In this document: piece by piece, positions 4,960 to 56,657 of the stretch | How the letters are laid out: the number at the start of each line of letters is the position of its first letter | Numbering within the stretch: the first letter of the stretch is position 1 | DNA from: Bacteroidota bacterium | Lineage (GTDB): Bacteria; Bacteroidota; Bacteroidia; Bacteroidales; WCHB1-69 | Assembly: GCA_029570835.1 (NCBI GenBank) | Contig: JAKPTX010000089.1 | Location: 34,637-98,636 of the forward strand | Direction of reading: 5' to 3' | DNA length: 64,000 bases | The notes under the pieces: model-generated | The model's database searches: none | Seen by the model: only the letters and a program-made list of their open reading frames with translations | What the model was told of the DNA's origin: nothing | Translations under genes and position numbers: made by a program

Positions 4960-4964
4960 AATAA

Positions 4965-11634: not shown

Positions 11635-11644
11635 CCAATCTTCA

Positions 11645-27704: not shown

Positions 27705-27762
27705 AAAAAAAATTAGGGGGCAGCATAGAGGGTGACTTTTTAGTTGTGTTTTTCCCCCACTC
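27705..27762. repeat. Dispersed intergenic element, copy 1 (A-run / AGGGGGCAG / CTTTTTAGTT / CCCCACTC blocks)
   Basis: Shares three ordered blocks with 50073-50128. The G5 (27716-27720) and C5 (27754-27758) tracts could pair. Confidence 0.6.
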
Positions 27763-27794
27763 GGAAGCATTAAACGCTTTGGATATGCAGGATC

Positions 27795-27815
27795 AATTAC
27801 GAATTACGAATTACG
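27795..27815. repeat. Tandem heptamer array (AATTACG x3)
   Basis: Read directly. The sequence CAATTACGAATTA recurs in reverse orientation at 49988-50003. Confidence 0.8.
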
Positions 27816-27843
27816 GAATCGGGATTAATTAAAAACAAACGAT

Positions 27844-28815
27844 ATGAAAAGATTTTTATTTATTGCAGCATTGATTTTTTCATCATTGACTTTGTTGAGT
27901 CAAAGTTATGTTTCATTTTTTGCGGATACCAACAAATATAACATTTTGCATCCCATAACTTGGAAAGGAGATTTATCCTCTGATCGTTTTCCGGATTGTG
28001 TTTCCACATTCACGTACTGGGTTATAAAAACGAATCAACACACAATAAATGATAAAACTTATTATGTATCACGACCCGAGTTTGATGAAGATAATCTGAG
28101 GGCTTTTGATGAAGATATATTTATAAGGGAGGATACAACAGGTAAAATTTTTCGTTATTTTCCTTCGATAGAAGATGAAGTATTGATTTGTGATATGTCT
28201 TTAAATCAAGGAGATACATTTCAATTATATACTTTGGATAGTGAGTTTGGTACGGAGTACTACTTTACTGAACAAGGTTATAAACTTGTGGTTGATAGTG
28301 TAACTTATGAAAATGGGAGAAAAATTATTCATTTTCCTAATATTGATGAAAATATTACCTACACTTATTTCTATAATGGGTTGGATTGGGAATATAATGT
28401 CAGATTAAAATTTATTGAAGGTGTGGGTCCAACCTATGGTCCATTCGGCTTTGTAAGTGTGTCTTATGAACCCTTTTTGCCATTACTCCTATGTATTACT
28501 CGGGGTACTCAATTAGAATTTGTACTTCATGATAATCTTGGTTGTCACTATAATTATGTTGGTATAAACGATTATGAGTCTTTAAAAATCAAACTGTATC
28601 CCAACCCTTCCGATGGATTAATACATCTTGATTTGGATGAAAATTGCACAGATTGTTATGTAGAGGTATTTAATCTGTTGGGTGTTTCAGTCTATTCAAC
28701 AACAATTTCCGAAAGCATGACCATTGATTTGTCGAATAATCCGGCAGGAATCTATTTTTTGTCGCTCCGAAACAAAGAATCGGTGTTGGGGGTTAAGAAG
28801 GTGATAATCAAATGA
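27844..28815 (+). CDS. Secreted protein with T9SS type-A C-terminal sorting domain
   Basis: Signal peptide. C-terminal KLYPNPSDGLIHLDL...GIYFLSLRNKESVLGVKKVIIK is the Por/T9SS CTD signature. Confidence 0.7.
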   Translation: MKRFLFIAALIFSSLTLLSQSYVSFFADTNKYNILHPITWKGDLSSDRFPDCVSTFTYWVIKTNQHTINDKTYYVSRPEFDEDNLRAFDEDIFIREDTTGKIFRYFPSIEDEVLICDMSLNQGDTFQLYTLDSEFGTEYYFTEQGYKLVVDSVTYENGRKIIHFPNIDENITYTYFYNGLDWEYNVRLKFIEGVGPTYGPFGFVSVSYEPFLPLLLCITRGTQLEFVLHDNLGCHYNYVGINDYESLKIKLYPNPSDGLIHLDLDENCTDCYVEVFNLLGVSVYSTTISESMTIDLSNNPAGIYFLSLRNKESVLGVKKVIIK

Positions 28816-28845
28816 TTTCGGAGGGCGGATTGCGGATCAAAAAAA

Positions 28846-28894
28846 GTCGAAAGTCGAAAGTCGAAAGTCGAAAGTCGAAAGTCGGAAGGCGAAA
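28846..28894. repeat. Tandem heptamer array (GTCGAAA x5, GTCGGAA, GGCGAAA)
   Basis: Read directly. Seven contiguous 7-nt units. Confidence 0.9.
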
Positions 28895-28904
28895 GTTTTT
28901 TTAT

Positions 28905-28937
28905 AAATTGAAAATTGAAAATTGAAAATTGAAAATG
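28905..28937. repeat. Tandem heptamer array (AAATTGA x about 4.5)
   Basis: Read directly. Confidence 0.9.
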
Positions 28938-28958
28938 GTCAAATATCTAGCGTATCTC

Positions 28959-29120
28959 ATTGATATTCATATCAATAGCCATGTCCTTTAGGGCATGGTT
29001 GGGAATTAACCCCAAGATATCAAGGGCTTTAGCCCAAATTTATTATAATGTCACCCCTTCGGGGTTCTTTGGGCTCTTGGGGTCAATATTTTGCTATAAT
29101 AATGTCACCCCTTTGGGGTT
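28959..29120. other. Cluster of short hairpins with alternative long-range pairings (possible structured RNA or REP/BIME-like element)
   Basis: Hairpins: ATTGATAT/ATATCAAT 28959-28976; CCATGTCC-TTTA-GGGCATGG 28979-28998; TTGGG/CCCAA 28999-29015; GGGC-TTTA-GCCC 29024-29035; ACCCC/GGGGT 29053-29065 and 29107-29119. Long-range pairs: ACCCCAAG 29009-29016 with CTTGGGGT 29076-29083, and AGCCCAAA 29031-29038 with TTTGGGCT 29068-29075. Confidence 0.5.
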
Positions 29121-29125
29121 ATTTT

Positions 29126-29160
29126 GAAGTAAGAAGTGTGAAATTAGAAATATGAAATCT
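29126..29160. repeat. Degenerate heptamer array (GAAGTAA GAAGTGT GAAATTA GAAATAT GAAATCT)
   Basis: Read directly. Five 7-mers each start with GAA. Confidence 0.7.
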
Positions 29161-29193
29161 ATTTTAAAATGTAAATACCTGATATTCAAATAT

Positions 29194-29221
29194 TTCTAAA
29201 TTCTAAACTCTAAATTCTAAA
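29194..29221. repeat. Tandem heptamer array (TTCTAAA x4, one CTCTAAA)
   Basis: Read directly. Confidence 0.9.
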
Positions 29222-29228
29222 TTTATTC

Positions 29229-29290
29229 ATTCCGCCTTCCGCCTTCCGATTTCCGCCTTTAATTCTACCTTCTTCATTCTACCTTCTACC
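29229..29290. repeat. TTCCGCC/TTCTACC heptamer module, copy 1
   Basis: TTCCGCC TTCCGCC TTCCGAT TTCCGCC, then TTCTACC TTCTTCA TTCTACC TTCTACC. The 31-nt core ATTCCGCCTTCCGCCTTCCGATTTCCGCCTT is identical to 50005-50035. Confidence 0.9.
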
Positions 29291-29309
29291 TTGTAGCACC
29301 GAAATCTTT

Positions 29310-30119
29310 TTAGTTTTTCTTTTCTCTTTCGGCGTAAATTTCGTCGGTCATCATTTGTTTGAGGACTGAGGGGGAGATGTTTCTGGTGAGTTTTCCGCCT
29401 TTACACCAGGAGATGTGACCGGTTTGTTCTGAAACAATGACGGAGATGGCATCGGTATGGGTGGTTGCTCCGATGGCGGAACGGTGTCGTAAACCTAAGT
29501 CGGAAGGGATTGATTCATCCTCCGATACCGGCAAAATACATCGTGCAGCGGCGATGCGGTGGTTAGCAATAATAACAGCCCCATCGTGCAACGGTGAGTT
29601 TTTATAGAAGAGATTTTCTAACAATTCCTGGGATACCACAGCGTCAATCTCTTGTCCGGTAGCTAAAAACTCATCCAGTGGATTTTTTCGTGCAAACACC
29701 ATTAAAGCACCGGTTCTGCTTGCCGACATTCTTTCACAAGCACGTGTAATGGCCTCTACGTCTTCTGCATAATCTGCGGGAATGTTTTTCCCTTTGATGT
29801 AGAAACGTGCCCATTTCAAGACTTCAGTATTACCCAGATAGAGTAAAAATTTCCTCAATTCCGGCTGGAACACCACAATCAACAAAATCACCCCGACACT
29901 CAGAAACTGTTCGAGGATCACGTTCAGCATATTCAACTGCAAGAGAGAGACTGCTTTCCAAATCACAAAAAGGATCATCAATCCGATAAAAATTCTCACG
30001 GCAGCGGTTCCTTTCAGCCATTTGTAGAACTGAAAAAGAATAAACGCAACCAGAAGAATATCAATCAGGTCGGTGATTTTGAATTGAATAAAACTTAAAA
30101 CGTTCAAATAGAGAGTCAT
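29310..30119 (-). CDS. cdaA: Diadenylate cyclase CdaA (c-di-AMP synthase)
   Basis: Three N-terminal TM helices, then a DAC domain: TGALMVFARKNPL, SPLHDGAVII, LGLRHRSAIGATTHTDAISVIVSEQTGHIS. Confidence 0.88.
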   Translation of the reverse strand: MTLYLNVLSFIQFKITDLIDILLVAFILFQFYKWLKGTAAVRIFIGLMILFVIWKAVSLLQLNMLNVILEQFLSVGVILLIVVFQPELRKFLLYLGNTEVLKWARFYIKGKNIPADYAEDVEAITRACERMSASRTGALMVFARKNPLDEFLATGQEIDAVVSQELLENLFYKNSPLHDGAVIIANHRIAAARCILPVSEDESIPSDLGLRHRSAIGATTHTDAISVIVSEQTGHISWCKGGKLTRNISPSVLKQMMTDEIYAEREKKN

Positions 30120-30778: not shown

Positions 30779-30873
30779 ACGTTTGATTATGAAAGAACAA
30801 AATTACATTTTTTTTTGATATCTTTTTTTAATAATTGATAAAAATTCAAACCATTAAAAATTGTCGGTTCATT

Positions 30874-31971
30874 ATGGAAAAACCTACCCGTTTAATTGCA
30901 AAAGTTATTGAAACACTGAATGTTATCAATAATGCTGATGTTCCCTACACTCCTATTGAGAAGGAGATCATTTTGCATCATGTTCGTGCAGCCTATATTC
31001 AATTGATCAATACTCCGGTCTCAGATGAGCTTCCCAATGAGGTCAGATTTTCGTTGGATGCGGAACCGAATGTGGCGTCTCAGCAGTTGGAGCAAGAGTT
31101 CAAAGCACAGATTGAGTCGTTAACCAAACAGTTGGAAGAATTGCAGCAAGCAGGTACTGCTTCTCAGAATGAGGTTGTAGATTTGCGTAATCAGTTAGAA
31201 ATAAAAAATGAGGGGGAGAAAAGTCTCACCACTCAACTTCAGCAGTTGCAATCGGAAGTGAATCGCTCCAAGGAAGAGCATCAGCAGATGATGGATGCAC
31301 TACAGCAGAAGAATGACACTATTTCGCAACTGCAAACCGAAATAGAGAGTTTGAAAAAAGAAGCGGCTGCTGCTTCAGAACAGGTGAGCGAGCAGGTGTC
31401 CCCAGAGCGGGAGGAAATGCGGGAGGATCCCCCCCAAATTATTGAAATCCAAAAAGAAACAGAAAAACCTACTGCTACTGAAACTCCCAAAGAGGAAACA
31501 AAAGAGGTGGCACCACAACCACAACCCGGCTTACAGACAGATCTTTTCATGGAAGATGATATTGTGGAGTTTATTCGTCAGGATGATCCGAAAGAAACGC
31601 AACCTGCGGCTCCGAAACCTCATACTATTCCCTATTTTGAACAGAAAGAGGAACCTAAAAAAGAGAAAAGATCGTTGCATGATCTGCTTTCCGATAAGAA
31701 AGAGGATAACTCAGTGGTGACTCATTTTCAACAGTCCAAAATTCATGATTTGACCAAAGCAATTACGATTAATGATAAGTTCTTATTTATCAAGGAGTTA
31801 TTTAAAGGAAAAGGAGAGGAGTTCAGCAGTGCAATCCAGAAAATCAACAATAGCAGCAATATGGATGAAGCGTTTGGACATATCGATGAGATGAAAAATT
31901 ATTATTTCTGGGATACGACAGCGCCTGCTTATTTAACATTTTGTGACTTGGTAAGAAGAAAATTTATATAA
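30874..31971 (+). CDS. Hypothetical protein with central coiled-coil and Glu/Pro/Lys-rich linker
   Basis: Heptad-rich QQLEQEFKAQIESLTKQLEELQQ... region, an acidic/proline linker, and a conserved-looking C-terminal about 90-aa domain. No motif recognised. The ATG at 30874 is preferred over the TTG at 30835. Confidence 0.5.
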   Translation: MEKPTRLIAKVIETLNVINNADVPYTPIEKEIILHHVRAAYIQLINTPVSDELPNEVRFSLDAEPNVASQQLEQEFKAQIESLTKQLEELQQAGTASQNEVVDLRNQLEIKNEGEKSLTTQLQQLQSEVNRSKEEHQQMMDALQQKNDTISQLQTEIESLKKEAAAASEQVSEQVSPEREEMREDPPQIIEIQKETEKPTATETPKEETKEVAPQPQPGLQTDLFMEDDIVEFIRQDDPKETQPAAPKPHTIPYFEQKEEPKKEKRSLHDLLSDKKEDNSVVTHFQQSKIHDLTKAITINDKFLFIKELFKGKGEEFSSAIQKINNSSNMDEAFGHIDEMKNYYFWDTTAPAYLTFCDLVRRKFI

Positions 31972-32006
31972 ATATTTATTAAAAATTATAAAAAGATTAT
32001 TTAATT

Positions 32007-33209
32007 ATGAATAAAAAATTATTATTACTCCTTTTATCAGGGATTATTTTGTTTTCATTTCAACCTCTGTTTGCTCAGGAAGAAGGGGAAGGTTATATTT
32101 TCACAACTCAGAAATCGATTCCGGTTACTTCGGTTAAGGATCAAAACCGATCCGGTACCTGCTGGAGTTTTTCCGGTTTGGGCTTTTTGGAAGCTGAATT
32201 GATACGAATGGGTAAGGGAGAGTATGACTTGTCGGAGATGTTTATTGTCAACAGAACTTATTTACACAAAGCAGATATTTACGTTAGAATGCACGGAAAT
32301 TTTAATTTTGGTGGCGGTGGTGCCTTTTTTGATGTATTCAATATGATCAAAATGTATGGTATTGTTCCGGAATCTGCTTATACCGGTTTGTTTGATGAGG
32401 AAGCCGGACACGTACATGGTGAGTTGGATGCATTAACCAAAGCGTATGTGGATGTGATTGTAAAAAATCCTCAAAAGAAACTTTCTCCACAATGGAGAAA
32501 AGGATTTGAAGCAGTTGTAAACACCTATTTGGGTGAAATTCCATCCGAATTTGAGTATGAAGGCAAAAAATATACACCGGAATCTTTTAGAAAAGAGTTG
32601 GGTTTGAACATGGATGATTATATCAGTATCACCTCCTTCACACACCATCCTTTTTACACCAAATTTGCGATTGAGATTCCTGACAATTGGGCATTGGAAC
32701 AATCCTACAATGTACCTTTGGAGGAGATGATGATCATTATGGAAAATGCAATCAACAACGGATATACTATTGCCTGGGGTGCCGATGTGAGTCACAAAGG
32801 ATTTAACTGGAGAAAAGGGGTTGCCATTATTCCGGAAAAAGATTTTACTTCTACATCAGGATCAGATCGTGCAAGATGGGAAAATTTATCTCAAAATGAG
32901 AGAGATAAAGAGCTTTACACATTTGATAAACCCGGTAAAGAGCAAGAGATTACTCAAGAGATGAGACAGATCGCTTTTGATAATTATACCACTACTGATG
33001 ATCATGGTATGGTTTTAACCGGTATTGCGACAGATCAAGTCGGGAATAAATATTTTATCGTAAAAAATTCATGGGGATTGAAATCGAGCAATCCTTACGA
33101 AGGTTATTTTTATGCTTCTTTCCCATTTGTTGAAATGCAAACCATTAACATTATAGTTCATAAAGATGCGATACCTAAGGATATTCGTAAAAAATTAAAT
33201 ATTAAATAA
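32007..33209 (+). CDS. pepC: C1-family cysteine aminopeptidase (aminopeptidase C / bleomycin hydrolase-like)
   Basis: Signal peptide. Catalytic [11 protein letters not shown], downstream DDHGMVLTG and KNSWG. Confidence 0.8.
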
Positions 33210-40176: not shown

Positions 40177-40210
40177 TCTTCATCTTTTGTATTACTCAAA
40201 TAAAGATCAA

Positions 40211-40239
40211 GGCAGAGTCAAACGATTCTGCCTTTTTTT
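40211..40239 (+). terminator. Rho-independent terminator after the EF-G paralog
   Basis: GGCAGA(G)TC-AAAC-GA(T)TCTGCC followed by T7. Sits between convergent genes. Confidence 0.7.
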
Positions 40240-40243
40240 GGCT

Positions 40244-48929: not shown

Positions 48930-49943
48930 ATGGATGCAACAAAGACAGAACATGAGTCTGCTCATAGGAATATAAAATTAAAAGTCCAAAGAATAATTGC
49001 CATTGGATCCGTTTTAATTTTTATAGGCAAGCTCTTGGCTTACTTTTTGACCCATTCGGTGAGTATTATGACAGATGCTCTAGAAAGTATAGTCAATGTG
49101 ATTACCGGATTTATCACGCTTTATGCTGTTTACTTATCCTGTAAACCCAAAGATGAAAATCACCCGTTTGGACACGGAAAGGCGGAATTCCTTTCCGCTT
49201 CTATTGAGGGATTTCTGATTATTATCGCCGGACTCGTGATCATTTTTGAGGCGGTAAAACGTTTTTTTATTCCGGTTCCGATTCTAAAAATGGATATCGG
49301 GATTATCATTGTTGCGATTGCAGGTGCTTTAAATTATTTGTTAGGGTGGTACAGTATTAGAATGGGGAAAAAGCACAACTCTATTGCACTCATTTCGGGA
49401 GGAAAACATTTACATTCAGATACATACTCATCCATTGGATTGTTGATAGGATTGCTATTGATCTATTTCACTAAACTAGTATGGTTGGATAGTCTCGTTG
49501 CGTTGCTATTTGGTGGCATAATCATCGTTACCGGCGTGAAAATCCTAAGAGAAACTGTTTCACATTTAATGGATAAAGCCGATTTTGTACTAATAGAGAA
49601 AATCGGTAAAATGATAGATCAAAACAAGTCGGATCAGTGGATTGACATTCACAATTTCAAATTAGTTAAGTATGGCAACGGATATCATATCGATTGTGAT
49701 CTGGTGCTGCCTCGGAATTTGTACTTGTCAGAAGCTCACGAAGAGGGAGAAAAATTGCGGGAACTATTGGTTTCCAATTTTTCAGAAGATATCATTTTCA
49801 ACCTGCACACCGATGAATGTTTCAGAAACTATTGCAAACATTGTAAAAGAGAAAATTGCACTGAACGGACCCACGAGTTTGAATCCCAAATCAGTTTTGA
49901 TATCGACCGATTTACCAAGGAAATTTCAGAAATTTTAGATTGA
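48930..49943 (+). CDS. Cation diffusion facilitator family transporter
   Basis: Six TM helices with HSVSIMTDALES and HLHSDTYSS metal-site motifs. Cytoplasmic C-domain with a Cys/His-rich tail. Confidence 0.85.
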   Translation: MDATKTEHESAHRNIKLKVQRIIAIGSVLIFIGKLLAYFLTHSVSIMTDALESIVNVITGFITLYAVYLSCKPKDENHPFGHGKAEFLSASIEGFLIIIAGLVIIFEAVKRFFIPVPILKMDIGIIIVAIAGALNYLLGWYSIRMGKKHNSIALISGGKHLHSDTYSSIGLLIGLLLIYFTKLVWLDSLVALLFGGIIIVTGVKILRETVSHLMDKADFVLIEKIGKMIDQNKSDQWIDIHNFKLVKYGNGYHIDCDLVLPRNLYLSEAHEEGEKLRELLVSNFSEDIIFNLHTDECFRNYCKHCKRENCTERTHEFESQISFDIDRFTKEISEILD

Positions 49944-50004
49944 TCTATTTTTATAGGATGATGAGGTAGGTACCTCTTTACGATCTCATAATTCGTAATT
50001 GATT

Positions 50005-50070
50005 ATTCCGCCTTCCGCCTTCCGATTTCCGCCTTGAATCCCTTCTACCTTCTTCCTTCTTATTTCTGAA
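50005..50070. repeat. TTCCGCC/TTCTACC heptamer module, copy 2
   Basis: 31 nt identical to 29229-29259, then TTCTACC TTCTTCC TTCTTAT TTCTGAA. Preceded by the rc of the AATTACG motif (49988-50003). Confidence 0.9.
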
Positions 50071-50072
50071 TT

Positions 50073-50128
50073 AAAAAAATCAGGGGGCAGGATGTGTCTT
50101 CCTTTTTAGTTATCCCATTTCCCCACTC
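50073..50128. repeat. Dispersed intergenic element, copy 2 (A-run / AGGGGGCAG / CTTTTTAGTT / CCCCACTC blocks)
   Basis: Same ordered blocks as 27705-27762. Followed by the hairpin CTCTC-CAATGT-GAGAG (50126-50141) and a T-rich tail. Confidence 0.6.
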
Positions 50129-50194
50129 TCCAATGTGAGAGCTTATTATTTATTTCGTGAACCAGGTAATACAATCTATCCCAAAAATCGTTTA

Positions 50195-51040
50195 TTATTC
50201 CACTACAAAACTCCTCAAAAGCGCAATCTCTTCTGCCCAAAGTGTAGGATCAGGAGTTTCTAAAATGATAGGAATATGGTTAAAACGAGGATCATTCATA
50301 AAGCGTTTAAAGAAATCGATCCCTAAGAAACCTTTGCCAATACTGTCATGTCTGTCCACTCTGCTGCCAAACTCTTTTTTAGTGTCATTTAAGTGGATCG
50401 CTTTCAGATAGTTAGCTCCAATGATTTCATCAAACTGACGGAAAGTTTCCGCATAGCCTGCTTCCGTTTTTAAGTCATAGCCGGCAGAGTAGGAGTGACA
50501 AGAGTCTATGCAAACTCCAACTCGCGATTTATCTTCCACCTGATCAATAATTTGGGCAATCTGTTCAAAAGTGTGTCCGAGATTGGTTCCTTGTCCTGCT
50601 GTATTTTCAATAATGGCAGAAACCCCTTTGGTCCTATCCAAAGCGATGTTGATTGACTCGGCAATGGTTGCCAGACAGTCTTCAATAGAGTGTTGATTCA
50701 GGTGACTCCCGGGGTGGAAATTGAGCAACTGTAATCCCAATTGCTCACAGCGTTGCATCTCATCTAAAAAAGCGTTGCGTGACTTCTCCAATCCTTCCTT
50801 TTCAGGATGTCCCAAATTGATTAAATAACTATCATGGGGGAGAATATGTTCCGCTTTGATTCCATATTTTTCACAATTTTGCTTGAAAAGTTCTATACTT
50901 TTTTTAGTCAAAGGAGGTGATACCCATCTTCTTTGATTTTTGGTAAATAAAGCAAAGGCATTGGCTCCAATCTCATGGGCTCTGATGGGTGCATTTTCAA
51001 CGCCTCCTTCAGCGCTGACATGGGCTCCGATATATTTCAT
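50195..51040 (-). CDS. nfo: Endonuclease IV (deoxyribonuclease IV)
   Basis: [13 protein letters not shown]...[41 protein letters not shown]. Confidence 0.92.
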
Positions 51041-53586: not shown

Positions 53587-53602
53587 TGAAAAATCTTTTG
53601 AA

Positions 53603-53637
53603 GGCGGAAGGCGGAATTCGGAAGGCGGAAAGAAGGA
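53603..53637. repeat. Tandem heptamer array (GGCGGAA GGCGGAA TTCGGAA GGCGGAA AGAAGGA)
   Basis: Read directly. Reverse complement of the TTCCGCC units at 29230-29257 and 50006-50033. Confidence 0.9.
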
Positions 53638-56151: not shown

Positions 56152-56171
56152 CCATGAAAAATAGTTTAAGC

Positions 56172-56657
56172 ATGAAAAAATGGATCATTATCCCTTTGCT
56201 TTTTATAGTTTTCTGCTCATTTGATATACAGCACGGTATGGTTAAAGTGTATCATAAAGATTCCCGCTACTCTTCCGATCAGATTTGCAACCTTCGGGAC
56301 GGAAAAGTGTACAAAAAAAACTCCTCATACTCTTCCGATATTGTCTGTCGGATCGAGGGGAATAAGATTTATAAAAACAACTCGACTTACAGCACCGATA
56401 TCATCTATACCATTAAGGAGAACAAGATCTATAGAGGCAATTCCACTTATTCCAGCGACCAGGTTTATACAATTAAGGATGGCAAGGTGTACAAGGGAAA
56501 TTCCACTTACAGCAGCGATCTCCTCTACACCATCAAGGACAATAAAGTGTACAAAGGCAACTCAACCTACAGCAGTGATTTGTATTTCAGCTACGATAAC
56601 TACGTCACCATTGAAGAGTTTGTTGCTATTTTACACGTGGTGAGATATACTTTTTGA
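56172..56657 (+). CDS. Small exported protein made of six tandem 20-aa repeats (KVYKGNSTYSSDxxYTIKDx)
   Basis: MKKWIIIPLLFIVFCSF hydrophobic N-terminus, then six consecutive 20-residue units, then a unique about 25-aa tail. No family recognised. Confidence 0.5.
   Translation: MKKWIIIPLLFIVFCSFDIQHGMVKVYHKDSRYSSDQICNLRDGKVYKKNSSYSSDIVCRIEGNKIYKNNSTYSTDIIYTIKENKIYRGNSTYSSDQVYTIKDGKVYKGNSTYSSDLLYTIKDNKVYKGNSTYSSDLYFSYDNYVTIEEFVAILHVVRYTF
56244..56603 (+). repeat. Coding 60-nt tandem repeat (6 units)
   Basis: The DNA periodicity underlies the 20-aa repeats. It also keeps a second frame open (track ORF 56221-56643). Confidence 0.8.

What the first reader, a model, noticed from the sequence alone, without database searches (positions are those of the whole stretch)
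28816..29309. 495-bp ORF-free island between convergent genes, built from blocks of different tandem heptamers in mirror-image order around a hairpin core
Seen in sequence:
- Location: the island lies between the stop of the T9SS-cargo gene (28815, +) and the stop of cdaA (29310, -). No frame carries an ORF of 60 aa or more.
- Periodicity: almost the whole interval is 7-nt periodic.
- Left arm: GTCGAAA x5 then GTCGGAA and GGCGAAA (28846-28894), followed by AAATTGA x about 4.5 (28905-28937).
- Right arm: five GAA-initial 7-mers (29126-29160), TTCTAAA x4 (29194-29221), TTCCGCC/TTCCGAT x4 (29230-29257), and TTCTACC/TTCTTCA x4 (29263-29290).
- Symmetry: the right-arm TTCCGCC units are the reverse complement of the GNCGRAA-type units on the left. 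The island therefore has an inverted-arm architecture flanking a 160-bp core of GC-cored hairpins.

Established knowledge: convergent intergenic spacers in this window are otherwise 0-70 bp (for example 4960-4964, 11635-11644, 40177-40243) and carry at most one terminator.

Inference: this is an inserted or expanded non-coding element. It could be MITE-like, REP/BIME-like, a protein-binding array, or a structured RNA locus. I do not recognise it as a described family. It is my best candidate for something new in this window.
Basis: partly seen in the sequence, partly recalled or inferred. Interest (0 to 1): 0.7.

Follow-up and report, generated by a model that had tools for sequence, protein, structure and literature searches.

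The report
Mosaic of tandem-heptamer repeats between genes
The 494-bp gap between two convergent genes is real repeat DNA, one fast-changing copy of a dispersed family built from short runs of 7-base units; this kind of repeat is already known in other bacteria, its function is unknown, and it does not look like a new gene or RNA.

Summary
Five period-7 tandem arrays lie at the stated coordinates. Lag-7 self-similarity is 0.47 against 0.27±0.02 in shuffles. In the whole 64-kb window there are nine period-7 arrays and none of periods 4-6 or 8-12.

The island is not a one-off. The same blocks recur at 27792-27824, 49985-50070 and 53600-53634, including the exact 31-mer ATTCCGCCTTCCGCCTTCCGATTTCCGCCTT. 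They also recur at many sites in contigs of related uncultured Bacteroidales, in a recurring block order.

Repeat matches start at the T9SS gene's stop codon and end 14 nt before the cdaA stop. Close strains carry quite different versions of this spacer: 119 bp, 494 bp, about 2.1 kb and about 2.9 kb, the last two with inserted genes. Orthologous arrays differ by 7 or 14 nt. More distant relatives (CdaA 78-84% identical) lack the island.

My best reading is a lineage-specific interspersed mosaic of heptamer simple-sequence repeats. It grows by slippage, is reshuffled by recombination, and is tolerated at gene 3' ends. It is organised like BIMEs and resembles cyanobacterial STRR, Xanthomonas GGGAATC and TAACTGA repeats.

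I found no Rfam hit, no MITE features and no strand bias relative to genes. I rate it a new member of a known but mechanistically unexplained kind, of moderate interest.

The parts
28816..28838 (+). Outermost left block: degenerate CGGA-type heptamers TTTCGGA GGGCGGA TTGCGGA, starting right after the T9SS gene stop. It is a diverged reverse-complement counterpart of the TTCCGCC block.
   Evidence: Sequence. blastn matches to family copies begin at 28814-28818. The same sequence abuts the T9SS stop in allele L182.
28839..28896 (+). A7 tract followed by an AAAGTCG (GTCGAAA) array of 7.7 units, ending GTCGGAA GGCGAAA. This is the 'D' module of the family, (TTTCGAC)n plus a T-run on the other strand.
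   Evidence: TRF. 40-90 blastn matches per position to related loci. The same module stands next to the 28-mer in L131, L132, L139 and L149.
28897..28937 (+). T7 tract and AAATTGA array, 4.6 units (inner left block).
   Evidence: TRF. 73% complementary to the TTCTAAA array (I3).
28938..29035 (.). Core part 1, not 7-periodic. Small hairpins: CCATGTCCTTTAGGGCATGG (28979-28998), TTGGGAATTAACCCCAA (28999-29015), GGGCTTTAGCCC (29024-29035).
   Evidence: Sequence. 28979-29022 has no match in the metagenome loci searched (L128-L152). The same hairpins occur in the orthologous long allele L181, fetched later.
29036..29125 (.). Core part 2: a dispersed hairpin module holding a 30-nt direct repeat (29041-29070 and 29095-29124, TATAATGTCACCCCTTYGGGGTT). 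Two small GC hairpins lie at 29053-29065 and 29107-29119; the latter has a U-rich tail.
   Evidence: the repeat finder D3. Terminator-like site 29107-29119. 84-90-nt matches in L145, L144 and L135.
29126..29193 (+). Five GAA-initial heptamers (GAAGTAA GAAGTGT GAAATTA GAAATAT GAAATCT) and a loop containing AAATACCTGATATTCAAATA. Together with the next block this forms a dispersed hairpin module.
   Evidence: Sequence. Inverted repeat I2. 86-110-nt matches in L142, L149, L132 and in L138 in both orientations.
29194..29223 (+). TTCTAAA array, 4.3 units.
   Evidence: TRF. 25-47 matches per position in related loci.
29229..29259 (+). Conserved 31-mer ATTCCGCC TTCCGCC TTCCGAT TTCCGCC TT (TTCCGCC array with a fixed variant third unit).
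   Evidence: Identical at 50005-50035. The exact 28-mer occurs in 25 metagenome stretches at many distinct sites.
29260..29292 (+). TTAA linker and TTCTACC/TTCTTCA array, 4.3 units. The usual neighbour of the 31-mer in the family.
   Evidence: TRF. Same order in L138, L139, L143, L145 and L149. Present reverse-complemented in the 119-bp allele of L178.
29293..29309 (+). Tail GTAGCACCGAAATCTTT before the cdaA stop. CCGAAATCTTT is shared with the short allele. ATTTCGG at 28815-28821 and CCGAAAT at 29299-29305 are inverted.
   Evidence: I6.
27792..27824 (+). Related site: AATTACG x3 plus GAATCGG, 20 nt upstream of the T9SS gene start codon. Sister strains have 4 units.
   Evidence: Alignment with L178, L181 and L182 shows one 7-nt indel.
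49985..50070 (+). Related site in a second convergent spacer: TAATTCG units, the same 31-mer, then a CTTCTAC/CTTCTTC array.
   Evidence: 72 nt, 86% identical to 29213-29280. A 14-nt indel against orthologous L133.
53600..53634 (+). Related site between divergent genes: GAAGGCG x4.4, with variant unit GAATTCG.
27717..27761 (+). Linker element 'E' (GGGGGCAG, about 25-30 variable nt, then CCCCACT), which accompanies the heptamer blocks in the family. Copy 1 in the window.
50084..50127 (+). Linker element 'E', copy 2 in the window, directly after the heptamer blocks of the 49985-50070 site.

Best explanation
The island is one allele of a hypervariable intergenic mosaic. It is assembled from dispersed repeat modules: mainly blocks of 3-8 tandem heptamers that can all be written TTCNNNN (GAA on the other strand), plus a few small hairpin modules.

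The modules belong to a high-copy family confined to a clade of uncultured Bacteroidales from anaerobic digesters and activated sludge.

The island consists of two composites of this family facing each other. The left one, read on the minus strand, is TTTTCAA block, TTTCGAC block plus T-run, then a degenerate TTCCGCC block. The right one is TTCTAAA block, TTCCGCC 31-mer, then TTCTACC block. They flank hairpin modules, which is why the island looks like inverted arms around a core.

Shown: arrays change length in 7-nt steps between strains; whole blocks are swapped, inverted or replaced between strains; and genes have been inserted in the same spacer.

Inferred mechanism: slipped-strand mispairing expands and contracts the blocks. 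Ectopic recombination or gene conversion between the many copies spreads and reshuffles them. They persist where they do least harm, downstream of genes and especially between convergent genes.

Inferred function: there is no locus-specific function. As a by-product, transcripts from either gene can fold the arms into a long imperfect hairpin, which may hinder read-through or 3' decay.
For: Arrays are real and far beyond chance.

Repeat matches cover 28814-29295 and stop at both coding sequences.

Other copies lie in the window. The exact 28-mer is found in 25 metagenome stretches at many different sites, with a recurring block order.

In about 261 kb of clade loci there are 127 distinct period-7 arrays. 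122 are intergenic, although about 87% of that DNA is coding. By spacer type they split convergent 54, tandem 28, divergent 19. 124 of the 127 units contain TTC/GAA, and runs are mostly 3-5 units.

Indels in 7-nt steps at orthologous sites: 14 nt at 49985-50003 against L133, and 7 nt upstream of the T9SS gene.

Four alleles of this very spacer occur among strains that encode the identical CdaA variant P0122: 119 bp, 494 bp, about 2.1 kb and about 2.9 kb. For L178 the flanks are 90-95% identical to the window. The GGTAGAA+GGCGGAA block of the short allele is the reverse complement of the window's right arm.

Relatives with 78-84% identical CdaA have an 11-bp or 134-bp spacer there, different downstream genes, and no period-7 arrays in 12 kb.

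Block orientation shows no bias relative to neighbouring genes: 75 versus 72 downstream and 36 versus 34 upstream. The TTC positions are not better conserved within arrays than the other four positions.

The arms pair in predicted RNA folds: minus strand z = -6.3, plus strand z = -4.2.

The island is identical in four separate assemblies (L001-L003, L180), so it is not an assembly artefact.
Against: - No slippage or recombination event was observed directly; both are inferred from comparing alleles.
- The exact 28-mer, with its fixed variant unit, is conserved at many sites and even in contigs of 47-53% G+C (L129, L148). That is more conservation than free-running slippage predicts, and it hints at selection or recent spread by an unidentified mobilising activity.
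- The strong polarity of inverted pairs is unexplained by a purely neutral model. The GAA arm comes before the TTC arm in 17 of 22 junctions in the clade and in 13 of 14 pairs in other phyla.
- The three 494-bp copies first compared are 100% identical, so this locus is not mutating on the time scale of those populations.
- No expression data are available.
Confidence: 0.6

Rival explanations
1. The heptamer blocks are functional binding platforms. A multimeric single-strand RNA- or DNA-binding protein (for example a cold-shock-domain, S1-like or Rho-type factor) or a nucleoid protein reads a TTC/GAA mark every 7 nt. This would control mRNA 3'-end stability, termination or translation of neighbouring genes.
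For: - 124 of 127 unit types in the clade share TTC/GAA in phase.
- Blocks have a preferred size of 3-5 units, about 30 nt. Rehm et al. report the same for Xanthomonas, where most arrays have 4 units.
- The exact 28-mer is conserved across many sites.
- (GGCGGAA)n occurs in many phyla, with at least 118 loci against about 4 expected for a random 19-mer (the expectation is my estimate).
- Inverted pairs have a consistent GAA-then-TTC polarity.
- MacGregor proposed S1, Csp or CsrA binding for TAACTGA repeats.
Against: - There is no orientation bias relative to adjacent genes.
- The TTC positions mutate as often as the other positions within arrays.
- Blocks are gained, lost and inverted between near-identical strains at the same locus.
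- Relatives lack them altogether.
- No candidate protein was identified.
Confidence: 0.2
2. The island is a discrete miniature transposable element (MITE) with terminal inverted repeats, inserted into a formerly short spacer.
For: - The arms are inverted, and a 7-8-nt inverted pair ATTTCGG / CCGAAAT lies at the extreme ends (I6).
- Copies are dispersed.
- Isolated pairs in other phyla have perfect 28-29-nt inverted arms, for example L014 and L049.
Against: - Copies do not share fixed ends or a fixed length; modules assort independently.
- No target-site duplication flanks the island.
- The shortest allele (119 bp) is not an empty site. It is built of the same arrays, partly in the opposite orientation, and shares CCGAAATCTTT with the long allele.
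- Length changes come in 7-nt steps.
Confidence: 0.06
3. The island encodes a structured non-coding RNA, or is a long bidirectional terminator or insulator selected for that role at this locus.
For: - Predicted folds are more stable than shuffles (z = -4.2 and -6.3).
- A terminator-like hairpin lies at 29107-29119.
- A7 precedes the left arm, so the minus-strand hairpin would be followed by U7.
- Cores of some inverted pairs in other phyla are GC hairpins with T-runs, in L034 and L081.
Against: - There is no Rfam family at gathering or permissive threshold.
- The sequence is not conserved at this locus in close or more distant relatives.
- Cores of most GAA-to-TTC junctions in the clade are AT-rich loops rather than terminator hairpins.
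- Inverted low-complexity arrays fold well by construction.
Confidence: 0.08
4. The arrays are contingency loci (phase variation by simple-sequence repeats) that switch expression of the T9SS-secreted surface protein or of cdaA.
For: Copy number differs by one 7-nt unit (3 versus 4 AATTACG) just upstream of the T9SS gene between strains. The gene encodes a secreted or surface protein.
Against: - The island itself lies downstream of both genes.
- Arrays of the family are mostly at 3' ends and between convergent genes, next to genes of all kinds.
- The 494-bp allele is identical in four assemblies.
- A unit of 7 nt outside coding sequence gives no frame switch.
Confidence: 0.05

Closest known systems
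Xanthomonas GGGAATC and Nostoc GGGGA(C/T)T intergenic heptameric simple-sequence repeats (Rehm et al. 2015, PMC4692102)
   Same: - Tandem heptamers, about 90% intergenic, mostly about 4 units.
- About 180 sites per genome.
- Many occur as closely spaced inverted pairs.
- They sit closest to the end of the upstream ORF.
- Length and sequence vary between close species.
- Function unknown.
- GGGAATC can be read as GAATCGG, a GAA-NNNN unit, and GAATCGG occurs at 27816-27822.
   Different: - One unit type there, against at least a dozen unit types arranged in a recurring order here.
- The G-quadruplex potential invoked there is absent from most units here.
- Different phylum.
- Dispersal of exact composite blocks and the E linker are not described there.
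TAACTGA and mixed heptamer assemblages in Beggiatoaceae, Cyanobacteria and five Bacteroidetes (MacGregor 2015, PMC4679880); cyanobacterial STRR heptamers (Mazel et al. 1990, from my own knowledge)
   Same: - Intergenic tandem heptamers.
- Indels in 7-nt increments between close strains.
- In Gramella, Aequorivita, Elizabethkingia and Microcystis, intergenic regions hold several different heptamer repeats.
- Relatives with the same gene neighbourhood lack them.
- A link to gene rearrangement has been suggested.
   Different: None of the named units occurs in tandem in the window: TAACTGA, CCCCAGT, TTGGTCA, CAACAGT. In 'Maribeggiatoa' the repeats sit just upstream of start codons in forward orientation; here they are mostly downstream of genes and show no orientation bias.
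BIMEs (bacterial interspersed mosaic elements made of REP/PU units) of enterobacteria (from my own knowledge)
   Same: - Intergenic, mostly at 3' ends.
- Mosaics of a few dispersed module types in alternating orientation, with different linkers at the two kinds of junction. Here, hairpin cores sit at GAA-to-TTC junctions and the E element at TTC-to-GAA junctions.
- Variable between strains.
   Different: The repeated unit here is a block of tandem heptamers, not a 35-40-nt imperfect palindrome with a GTAG head. No RAYT transposase or IHF/gyrase site is known or was tested. There is no sequence similarity.
Long simple sequence repeats of prokaryotes (Mrazek et al. 2007, as summarised in PMC4679880 and PMC4692102)
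   Same: Heptanucleotide units are the most over-represented class of long SSR in many genomes. Polymerase slippage has been proposed as the cause.
   Different: That survey treats arrays as independent microsatellites. Here identical composite blocks are dispersed, which needs copying between sites as well as slippage.

Membership tests
Intergenic heptameric simple-sequence repeats (LSSR / STRR-like class) | Head-to-tail tandem copies of a 7-nt unit, at least 2-3 units | tested here: met
   TRF finds five arrays of 4.3-7.7 units. Period 7 is the only period found.
Intergenic heptameric simple-sequence repeats (LSSR / STRR-like class) | Many dispersed sites per genome, overwhelmingly intergenic | tested here: met
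   There are 4 sites in 64 kb of the window. In the clade loci, 122 of 127 arrays are intergenic. No complete genome was available for a total count.
Intergenic heptameric simple-sequence repeats (LSSR / STRR-like class) | Length polymorphism in multiples of 7 nt between close strains | tested here: met
   14-nt and 7-nt indels at orthologous sites.
Cyanobacterial STRR / TAACTGA / Xanthomonas GGGAATC families in the strict sense | The family's own unit sequence in tandem | tested here: not met
   CCCCAGT, TTGGTCA, CAACAGT, TAACTGA, GGGAATC, GGGGATT and GGGGACT: no tandem dimer of any of them in the window.
REP / BIME | Unit is a 20-40-nt imperfect palindrome (REP/PU) repeated across the genome | tested here: not met
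   The dispersed units are heptamer blocks. The small hairpins (ACCCCTTYGGGGT and others) are minor components.
REP / BIME | Clusters of units in alternating orientation with junction-specific linkers | tested here: met
   GAA-arm and TTC-arm alternate. E sits at TTC-to-GAA junctions and hairpin or loop modules at GAA-to-TTC junctions.
REP / BIME | Cognate RAYT (Y1 transposase) in the genome | not testable with these tools
   No complete genome of the lineage could be read. Only loci around matches were available.
MITE | Fixed terminal inverted repeats and uniform copy length | tested here: not met
   Copies share modules but not ends or length.
MITE | Target-site duplication and a matching empty site in relatives | tested here: not met
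   There is no direct repeat at the island borders. The short allele is itself made of arrays and is not an empty site.
Rfam RNA families | Covariance-model match at or near the gathering score | tested here: not met
   No match at gathering threshold in the window. The best permissive hits score 9-14 bits against thresholds of 37-75.
Intrinsic (bidirectional) terminator | GC-rich stem-loop followed by a U-run on the transcribed strand, close to the stop codon | tested here: inconclusive
   One small site lies at 29107-29119, about 290 nt after the T9SS stop. U7 would follow the giant minus-strand hairpin. There are no 3'-end data.
Phase-variation contingency locus | Repeat inside a coding sequence or between promoter elements of the switched gene | tested here: not met
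   The island is downstream of both genes. Only the separate AATTACG array at 27795 is upstream of a gene.

The most novel reading that the evidence does not exclude
GAA/TTC-phased heptamer arrays may form a widespread bacterial class of cis-elements with a fixed architecture: a GAA arm, a core, then a TTC arm. They would be made or read by a conserved, still unknown machinery. The Bacteroidales mosaic, with its ordered blocks, invariant 28-mer and the E linker with its hypervariable interior, would be an unusually elaborate and tractable instance.

Hints:
- (GGCGGAA)n was found in at least 118 loci of about ten phyla and in 25 viral contigs.
- 13 of 14 inverted pairs have the same polarity.
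- GAA/TTC is enriched twofold among unrelated co-located heptamers: 26 observed against 12.9 +/- 3.3 expected.
- The Xanthomonas unit can also be read as GAA-NNNN.
Probability: 0.15. Interest if true: 0.8.

Novelty: new member of a known kind. Interest (0 to 1): 0.45.

Why it matters
Tandem heptamers are the most over-represented long microsatellites in many bacteria, yet after 35 years nobody knows why the unit is 7 nt long, how the repeats spread, or whether they do anything.

This lineage offers a dense and well-structured example. It has a dozen related units in a recurring order, an invariant 28-mer, junction-specific linkers, and several alleles of one spacer among near-identical strains. 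Two of those alleles have genes inserted.

That makes three questions testable with existing metagenome and metatranscriptome data from digesters: slippage versus copying between sites, neutral versus functional, and whether such spacers are hot spots for gene gain.

For annotation of this window the practical message is simpler. The island is repeat DNA, not a missed gene or a known RNA.

Tried and rejected
- Rfam at gathering threshold on the whole window, and at a permissive threshold on the island and on 49900-50250. Nothing credible.
- Literature search for the dimer strings GGCGGAAGGCGGAA and TTCCGCCTTCCGCC. No paper holds them.
It did not include the window's own genome, so no genome-wide copy number could be obtained.
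- MITE reading. Rejected: no fixed ends, no target-site duplication, no empty site.
- Structured RNA for the E element. RNAalifold on 22 distinct copies gives only a 4-bp GGGG/CCCC pairing on either strand. A small variable hairpin before its T-run was seen by eye only and was not tested.
- E as a promoter (Bacteroidetes TTTG / TAnnTTTG, or sigma-54). No convincing match by eye; not pursued.
- 'The arms flank terminator hairpins'. This holds for some pairs in other phyla (L034, L081), but most cores in the Bacteroidales clade are AT-rich loops.
- Selection on the TTC triplet within arrays. Not seen: deviation rates are 8-19% at all seven positions.
- Strand bias relative to neighbouring genes. 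None.
- Assembly artefact. Rejected: identical in four separate assemblies (L001-L003, L180), with related alleles in others.
- One paper search failed on a term-length rule, and one script failed and was rerun.
Full report
**1. What is in the sequence**

Between the stop of a T9SS-sorted protein gene (27844-28815, +) and the stop of cdaA (29310-30119, -) lie 494 bases with no ORF of 60 aa or more.

The five GAA-initial 7-mers at 29126-29160 can be read directly.

The 7-nt periodicity is far beyond chance. The lag-7 match fraction is 0.468, against 0.271 +/- 0.020 in 1000 dinucleotide-preserving shuffles. No shuffle produced a single 21-nt stretch with 17 matches at lag 7, whereas the island has 68 such positions. 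In the whole 64-kb window my scan finds nine period-7 arrays and none of periods 4-6 or 8-12.

The arms are partly complementary: 31 nt at 81%, 33 nt at 76% and 33 nt at 73%.

The description needs three corrections:
- Only about half of the interval is periodic. The core 28938-29125 is not.
- The mirror order is approximate.
- The window has a second long convergent spacer, 49944-50194, which carries the same repeats.

**2. It is a member of a dispersed family**

The 31-mer ATTCCGCCTTCCGCCTTCCGATTTCCGCCTT recurs exactly at 50005-50035, including its odd third unit TTCCGAT. There it is followed, as in the island, by a TTCTACC-type array; the match is 72 nt at 86% identity.

A GAAGGCG array lies at 53600-53634 between divergent genes. 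An AATTACG array lies 20 nt upstream of the T9SS gene's start codon.

A scan of JGI metagenomes with the exact 28-mer gave 25 stretches. Most have 34-41% G+C and come from digester or activated-sludge samples, and they represent many different genomic sites.

Read on the TTC strand, the blocks come in a recurring order:
- a TTCTAAA block;
- a TTTCGAC block with a T-run, or a CGTAATT block;
- the 28-mer;
- a TTCTACC/TTCTTAC block;
- and often a conserved 45-nt linker that I call E (GGGGGCAG, about 25-30 variable nt, CCCCACT).

A blastn of the island against these loci shows repeat matches from 28814-28818 to 29295 and none in the flanking coding sequence. Only 28979-29022 is unmatched, and that piece is present in an orthologous allele.

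Read on the minus strand, the island's left arm follows the same order: TTTTCAA block, TTTCGAC block with T7, then degenerate TCCGCAA TCCGCCC TCCGAAA. The island is therefore two family composites facing each other across hairpin modules. That explains the 'inverted arms around a core'.

**3. Census in the clade**

In about 261 kb of clade loci I counted 127 distinct period-7 arrays:
- 122 are intergenic, although about 87% of that DNA is coding by a rough ORF call.
- 54 lie between convergent genes, 28 between tandem genes and 19 between divergent genes.
- 124 of the 127 units contain TTC/GAA.

Runs are mostly 3-5 units. The orientation of the TTC strand relative to neighbouring genes is unbiased: 75 versus 72 downstream of genes and 36 versus 34 upstream. 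Within arrays the TTC positions deviate from the array consensus as often as the other four positions. Junctions from a GAA arm to a TTC arm outnumber the reverse by 17 to 5, and three of those five carry E.

**4. How it evolves**

The organism is an uncultured Bacteroidales bacterium. The island is 100% identical in three separate assemblies and in a fourth (L180).

Strains that encode the very same CdaA variant (P0122) carry four different alleles of this spacer. For L178, the flanks are 90-95% identical to the window.
- 119 bp (L178, L179). This allele is made only of arrays. Its GGTAGAA and GGCGGAA blocks are the reverse complement of the window's right arm.
- 494 bp (window, L180).
- About 2.1 kb, with an AAA_14/DUF4143 gene (L182).
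- About 2.9 kb, with two or three hypothetical genes, an E element and the same core hairpins (L181).

Orthologous arrays differ by whole units: 14 nt at 49985-50003 against L133, and 3 versus 4 AATTACG units upstream of the T9SS gene. At other sites one flank is conserved while the blocks and the other flank differ (L135 versus L142; L132/L136/L137).

Relatives with 84% and 78% identical CdaA keep the TK-cdaA side. Downstream they have other genes, spacers of 11 and 134 bp, and no period-7 arrays in 12 kb.

The island is therefore lineage-specific, sits at a synteny break, and turns over quickly.

**5. Most likely mechanism**

Shown: unit-wise length change; swapping, inversion and replacement of blocks; insertion of genes at the same spot; restriction to intergenic DNA with a preference for 3' ends; and no strand relation to genes.

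Inferred: slipped-strand mispairing changes block length. Ectopic recombination or gene conversion among the many copies spreads and reshuffles blocks. The repeats persist where they are least harmful.

A by-product may be functional. Predicted RNA from either strand folds better than shuffles (z = -4.2 and -6.3), and on the minus strand the arms pair into one long hairpin followed by U7. That could hinder read-through between the convergent genes. This is inference only, and inverted low-complexity arrays fold well by construction.

Some points do not fit a purely neutral picture. These are the invariance of the 28-mer across many sites, its presence in contigs of 47-53% G+C, and the polarity of inverted pairs.

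**6. Rival readings**

- A protein-binding platform reading TTC every 7 nt remains possible (0.2). It is weakened by the lack of orientation bias, the lack of extra conservation of TTC, and the rapid gain and loss.
- A MITE is largely excluded: no fixed ends, no target-site duplication, and the short allele is not an empty site.
- A structured RNA or a dedicated terminator lacks support: no Rfam match, no conservation at the locus, and AT-rich rather than terminator-like cores at most junctions in the clade.
- A contingency locus does not fit an element downstream of both genes.

**7. Comparison with what is known**

The kind is described.

Rehm et al. (PMC4692102) found about 186 GGGAATC heptamer arrays per Xanthomonas genome. 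About 90% are intergenic and most have four units. There are 70-75 closely spaced inverted pairs. The arrays lie on average 28 nt from the upstream ORF, vary between close species, and have no known function.

MacGregor (PMC4679880) described TAACTGA repeats with 7-nt indels between strains. She also described intergenic regions with several different heptamer repeats in Gramella, Aequorivita, Elizabethkingia and Microcystis, absent from close relatives, and suggested a link to rearrangement. Both papers cite Mrazek et al. 2007 for the over-representation of heptamers and the polymerase-slippage idea.

The cyanobacterial STRR heptamers are the oldest example (my own knowledge).

None of the named units occurs in tandem here. 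This is therefore a new member of the kind, not a member of any named family.

In organisation it resembles enterobacterial BIMEs, with alternating orientation and junction-specific linkers. Its unit is a heptamer block, not a REP palindrome.

No paper in the searched library contains GGCGGAAGGCGGAA or TTCCGCCTTCCGCC.

**8. A wider observation**

About 4 are expected for a random 19-mer by my estimate.

The loci come from Planctomycetota, Verrucomicrobiota, Acidobacteriota, Chloroflexota, Bacteroidota, Gemmatimonadota, Actinomycetota, Pseudomonadota and others. A further 25 viral contigs carry the pattern.

Those loci hold 279 period-7 arrays of 93 unit types, against 0-26 arrays for any other period. 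Fourteen loci have inverted pairs within 400 nt, and 13 of these have the GAA arm first. Among co-located units unrelated to GGCGGAA, GAA/TTC is enriched about twofold.

I could not scan control heptamers, so I cannot say whether GGCGGAA is exceptional.

**9. Verdict**

It is not a MITE, and there is no evidence for an RNA gene. The general kind is already described, although its mechanism is not.

Novelty: new member of a known kind. Interest: moderate (0.45). It rests mainly on the unusually rich block order, on the multiple alleles of one spacer among near-identical strains, and on the cross-phylum polarity of GAA/TTC arms.

Noticed in passing
window 27717-27761 and 50084-50127; 22 distinct copies in L130-L152: A conserved intergenic element 'E': TTATTTGGAAAT..AAATGGGGGGCAG, then about 25-30 variable nt usually ending in a T-run, then ATTTCCCCACTC. 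It always sits next to heptamer blocks, typically at a TTC-arm to GAA-arm junction. It has no Rfam hit and no consensus RNA fold. Its interior differs completely between orthologous copies (window versus L178) whose flanks are near-identical.
   Followed up: partly
It carries TAATTCG units, the same 31-mer, a CTTCTAC array and an E element. The orthologous locus L133 has two more heptamer units.
   Followed up: yes
window 27792-27824: An AATTACG x3 array 20 nt upstream of the T9SS gene's start codon. Sister strains (L178, L181, L182) have 4 units. This could affect expression of that gene.
   Followed up: partly
L181:10811-13734 and L182:10811-12927 (orthologous to window 28816-29309): In strains with the identical CdaA protein variant P0122, the same spacer holds inserted genes flanked by the repeat modules: an AAA_14/DUF4143 ATPase in one, and two or three hypothetical proteins in the other. 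The spacer behaves as an integration hot spot.
   Followed up: partly
L004-L121 (genome contigs) and L153-L177 (viral contigs): (GGCGGAA)n arrays occur in about ten bacterial phyla and in viral contigs, often together with other heptamer arrays. In 13 of 14 inverted pairs the GAA arm precedes the TTC arm. Some pairs (L014, L049) have perfect 28-29-nt inverted arms.
   Followed up: partly
L129 (53% G+C) and L148 (47% G+C): The exact 28-mer TTCCGCCTTCCGCCTTCCGATTTCCGCC, with its variant third unit, also occurs in contigs of clearly different base composition. L008 (Lewinellaceae) and L034 have near-identical versions. Shared descent, transfer or convergence is unresolved.
   Followed up: no
L058:5175-5480 (uncultured Bacteroidales MFD02416): A tandem unit of about 150 nt that itself contains a TTCCGCC array and a CCCCTCCCGGGAGGGG hairpin, followed by a CCTGTGC heptamer array. 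This is a higher-order repeat of heptamer modules.
   Followed up: no
window 56378-56579: A 60-nt-period tandem repeat (3.4 copies, 69% matches) inside the ORF 56154-56657. It is probably a repeated protein segment.
   Followed up: no
window 31959-32023: An AT-rich repeat of 10-22-nt period (AAAAATTATAAAAAATTATTT x3), running from the last bases of gene 30835-31971 across the short spacer into the start of gene 32007-33209.
   Followed up: no
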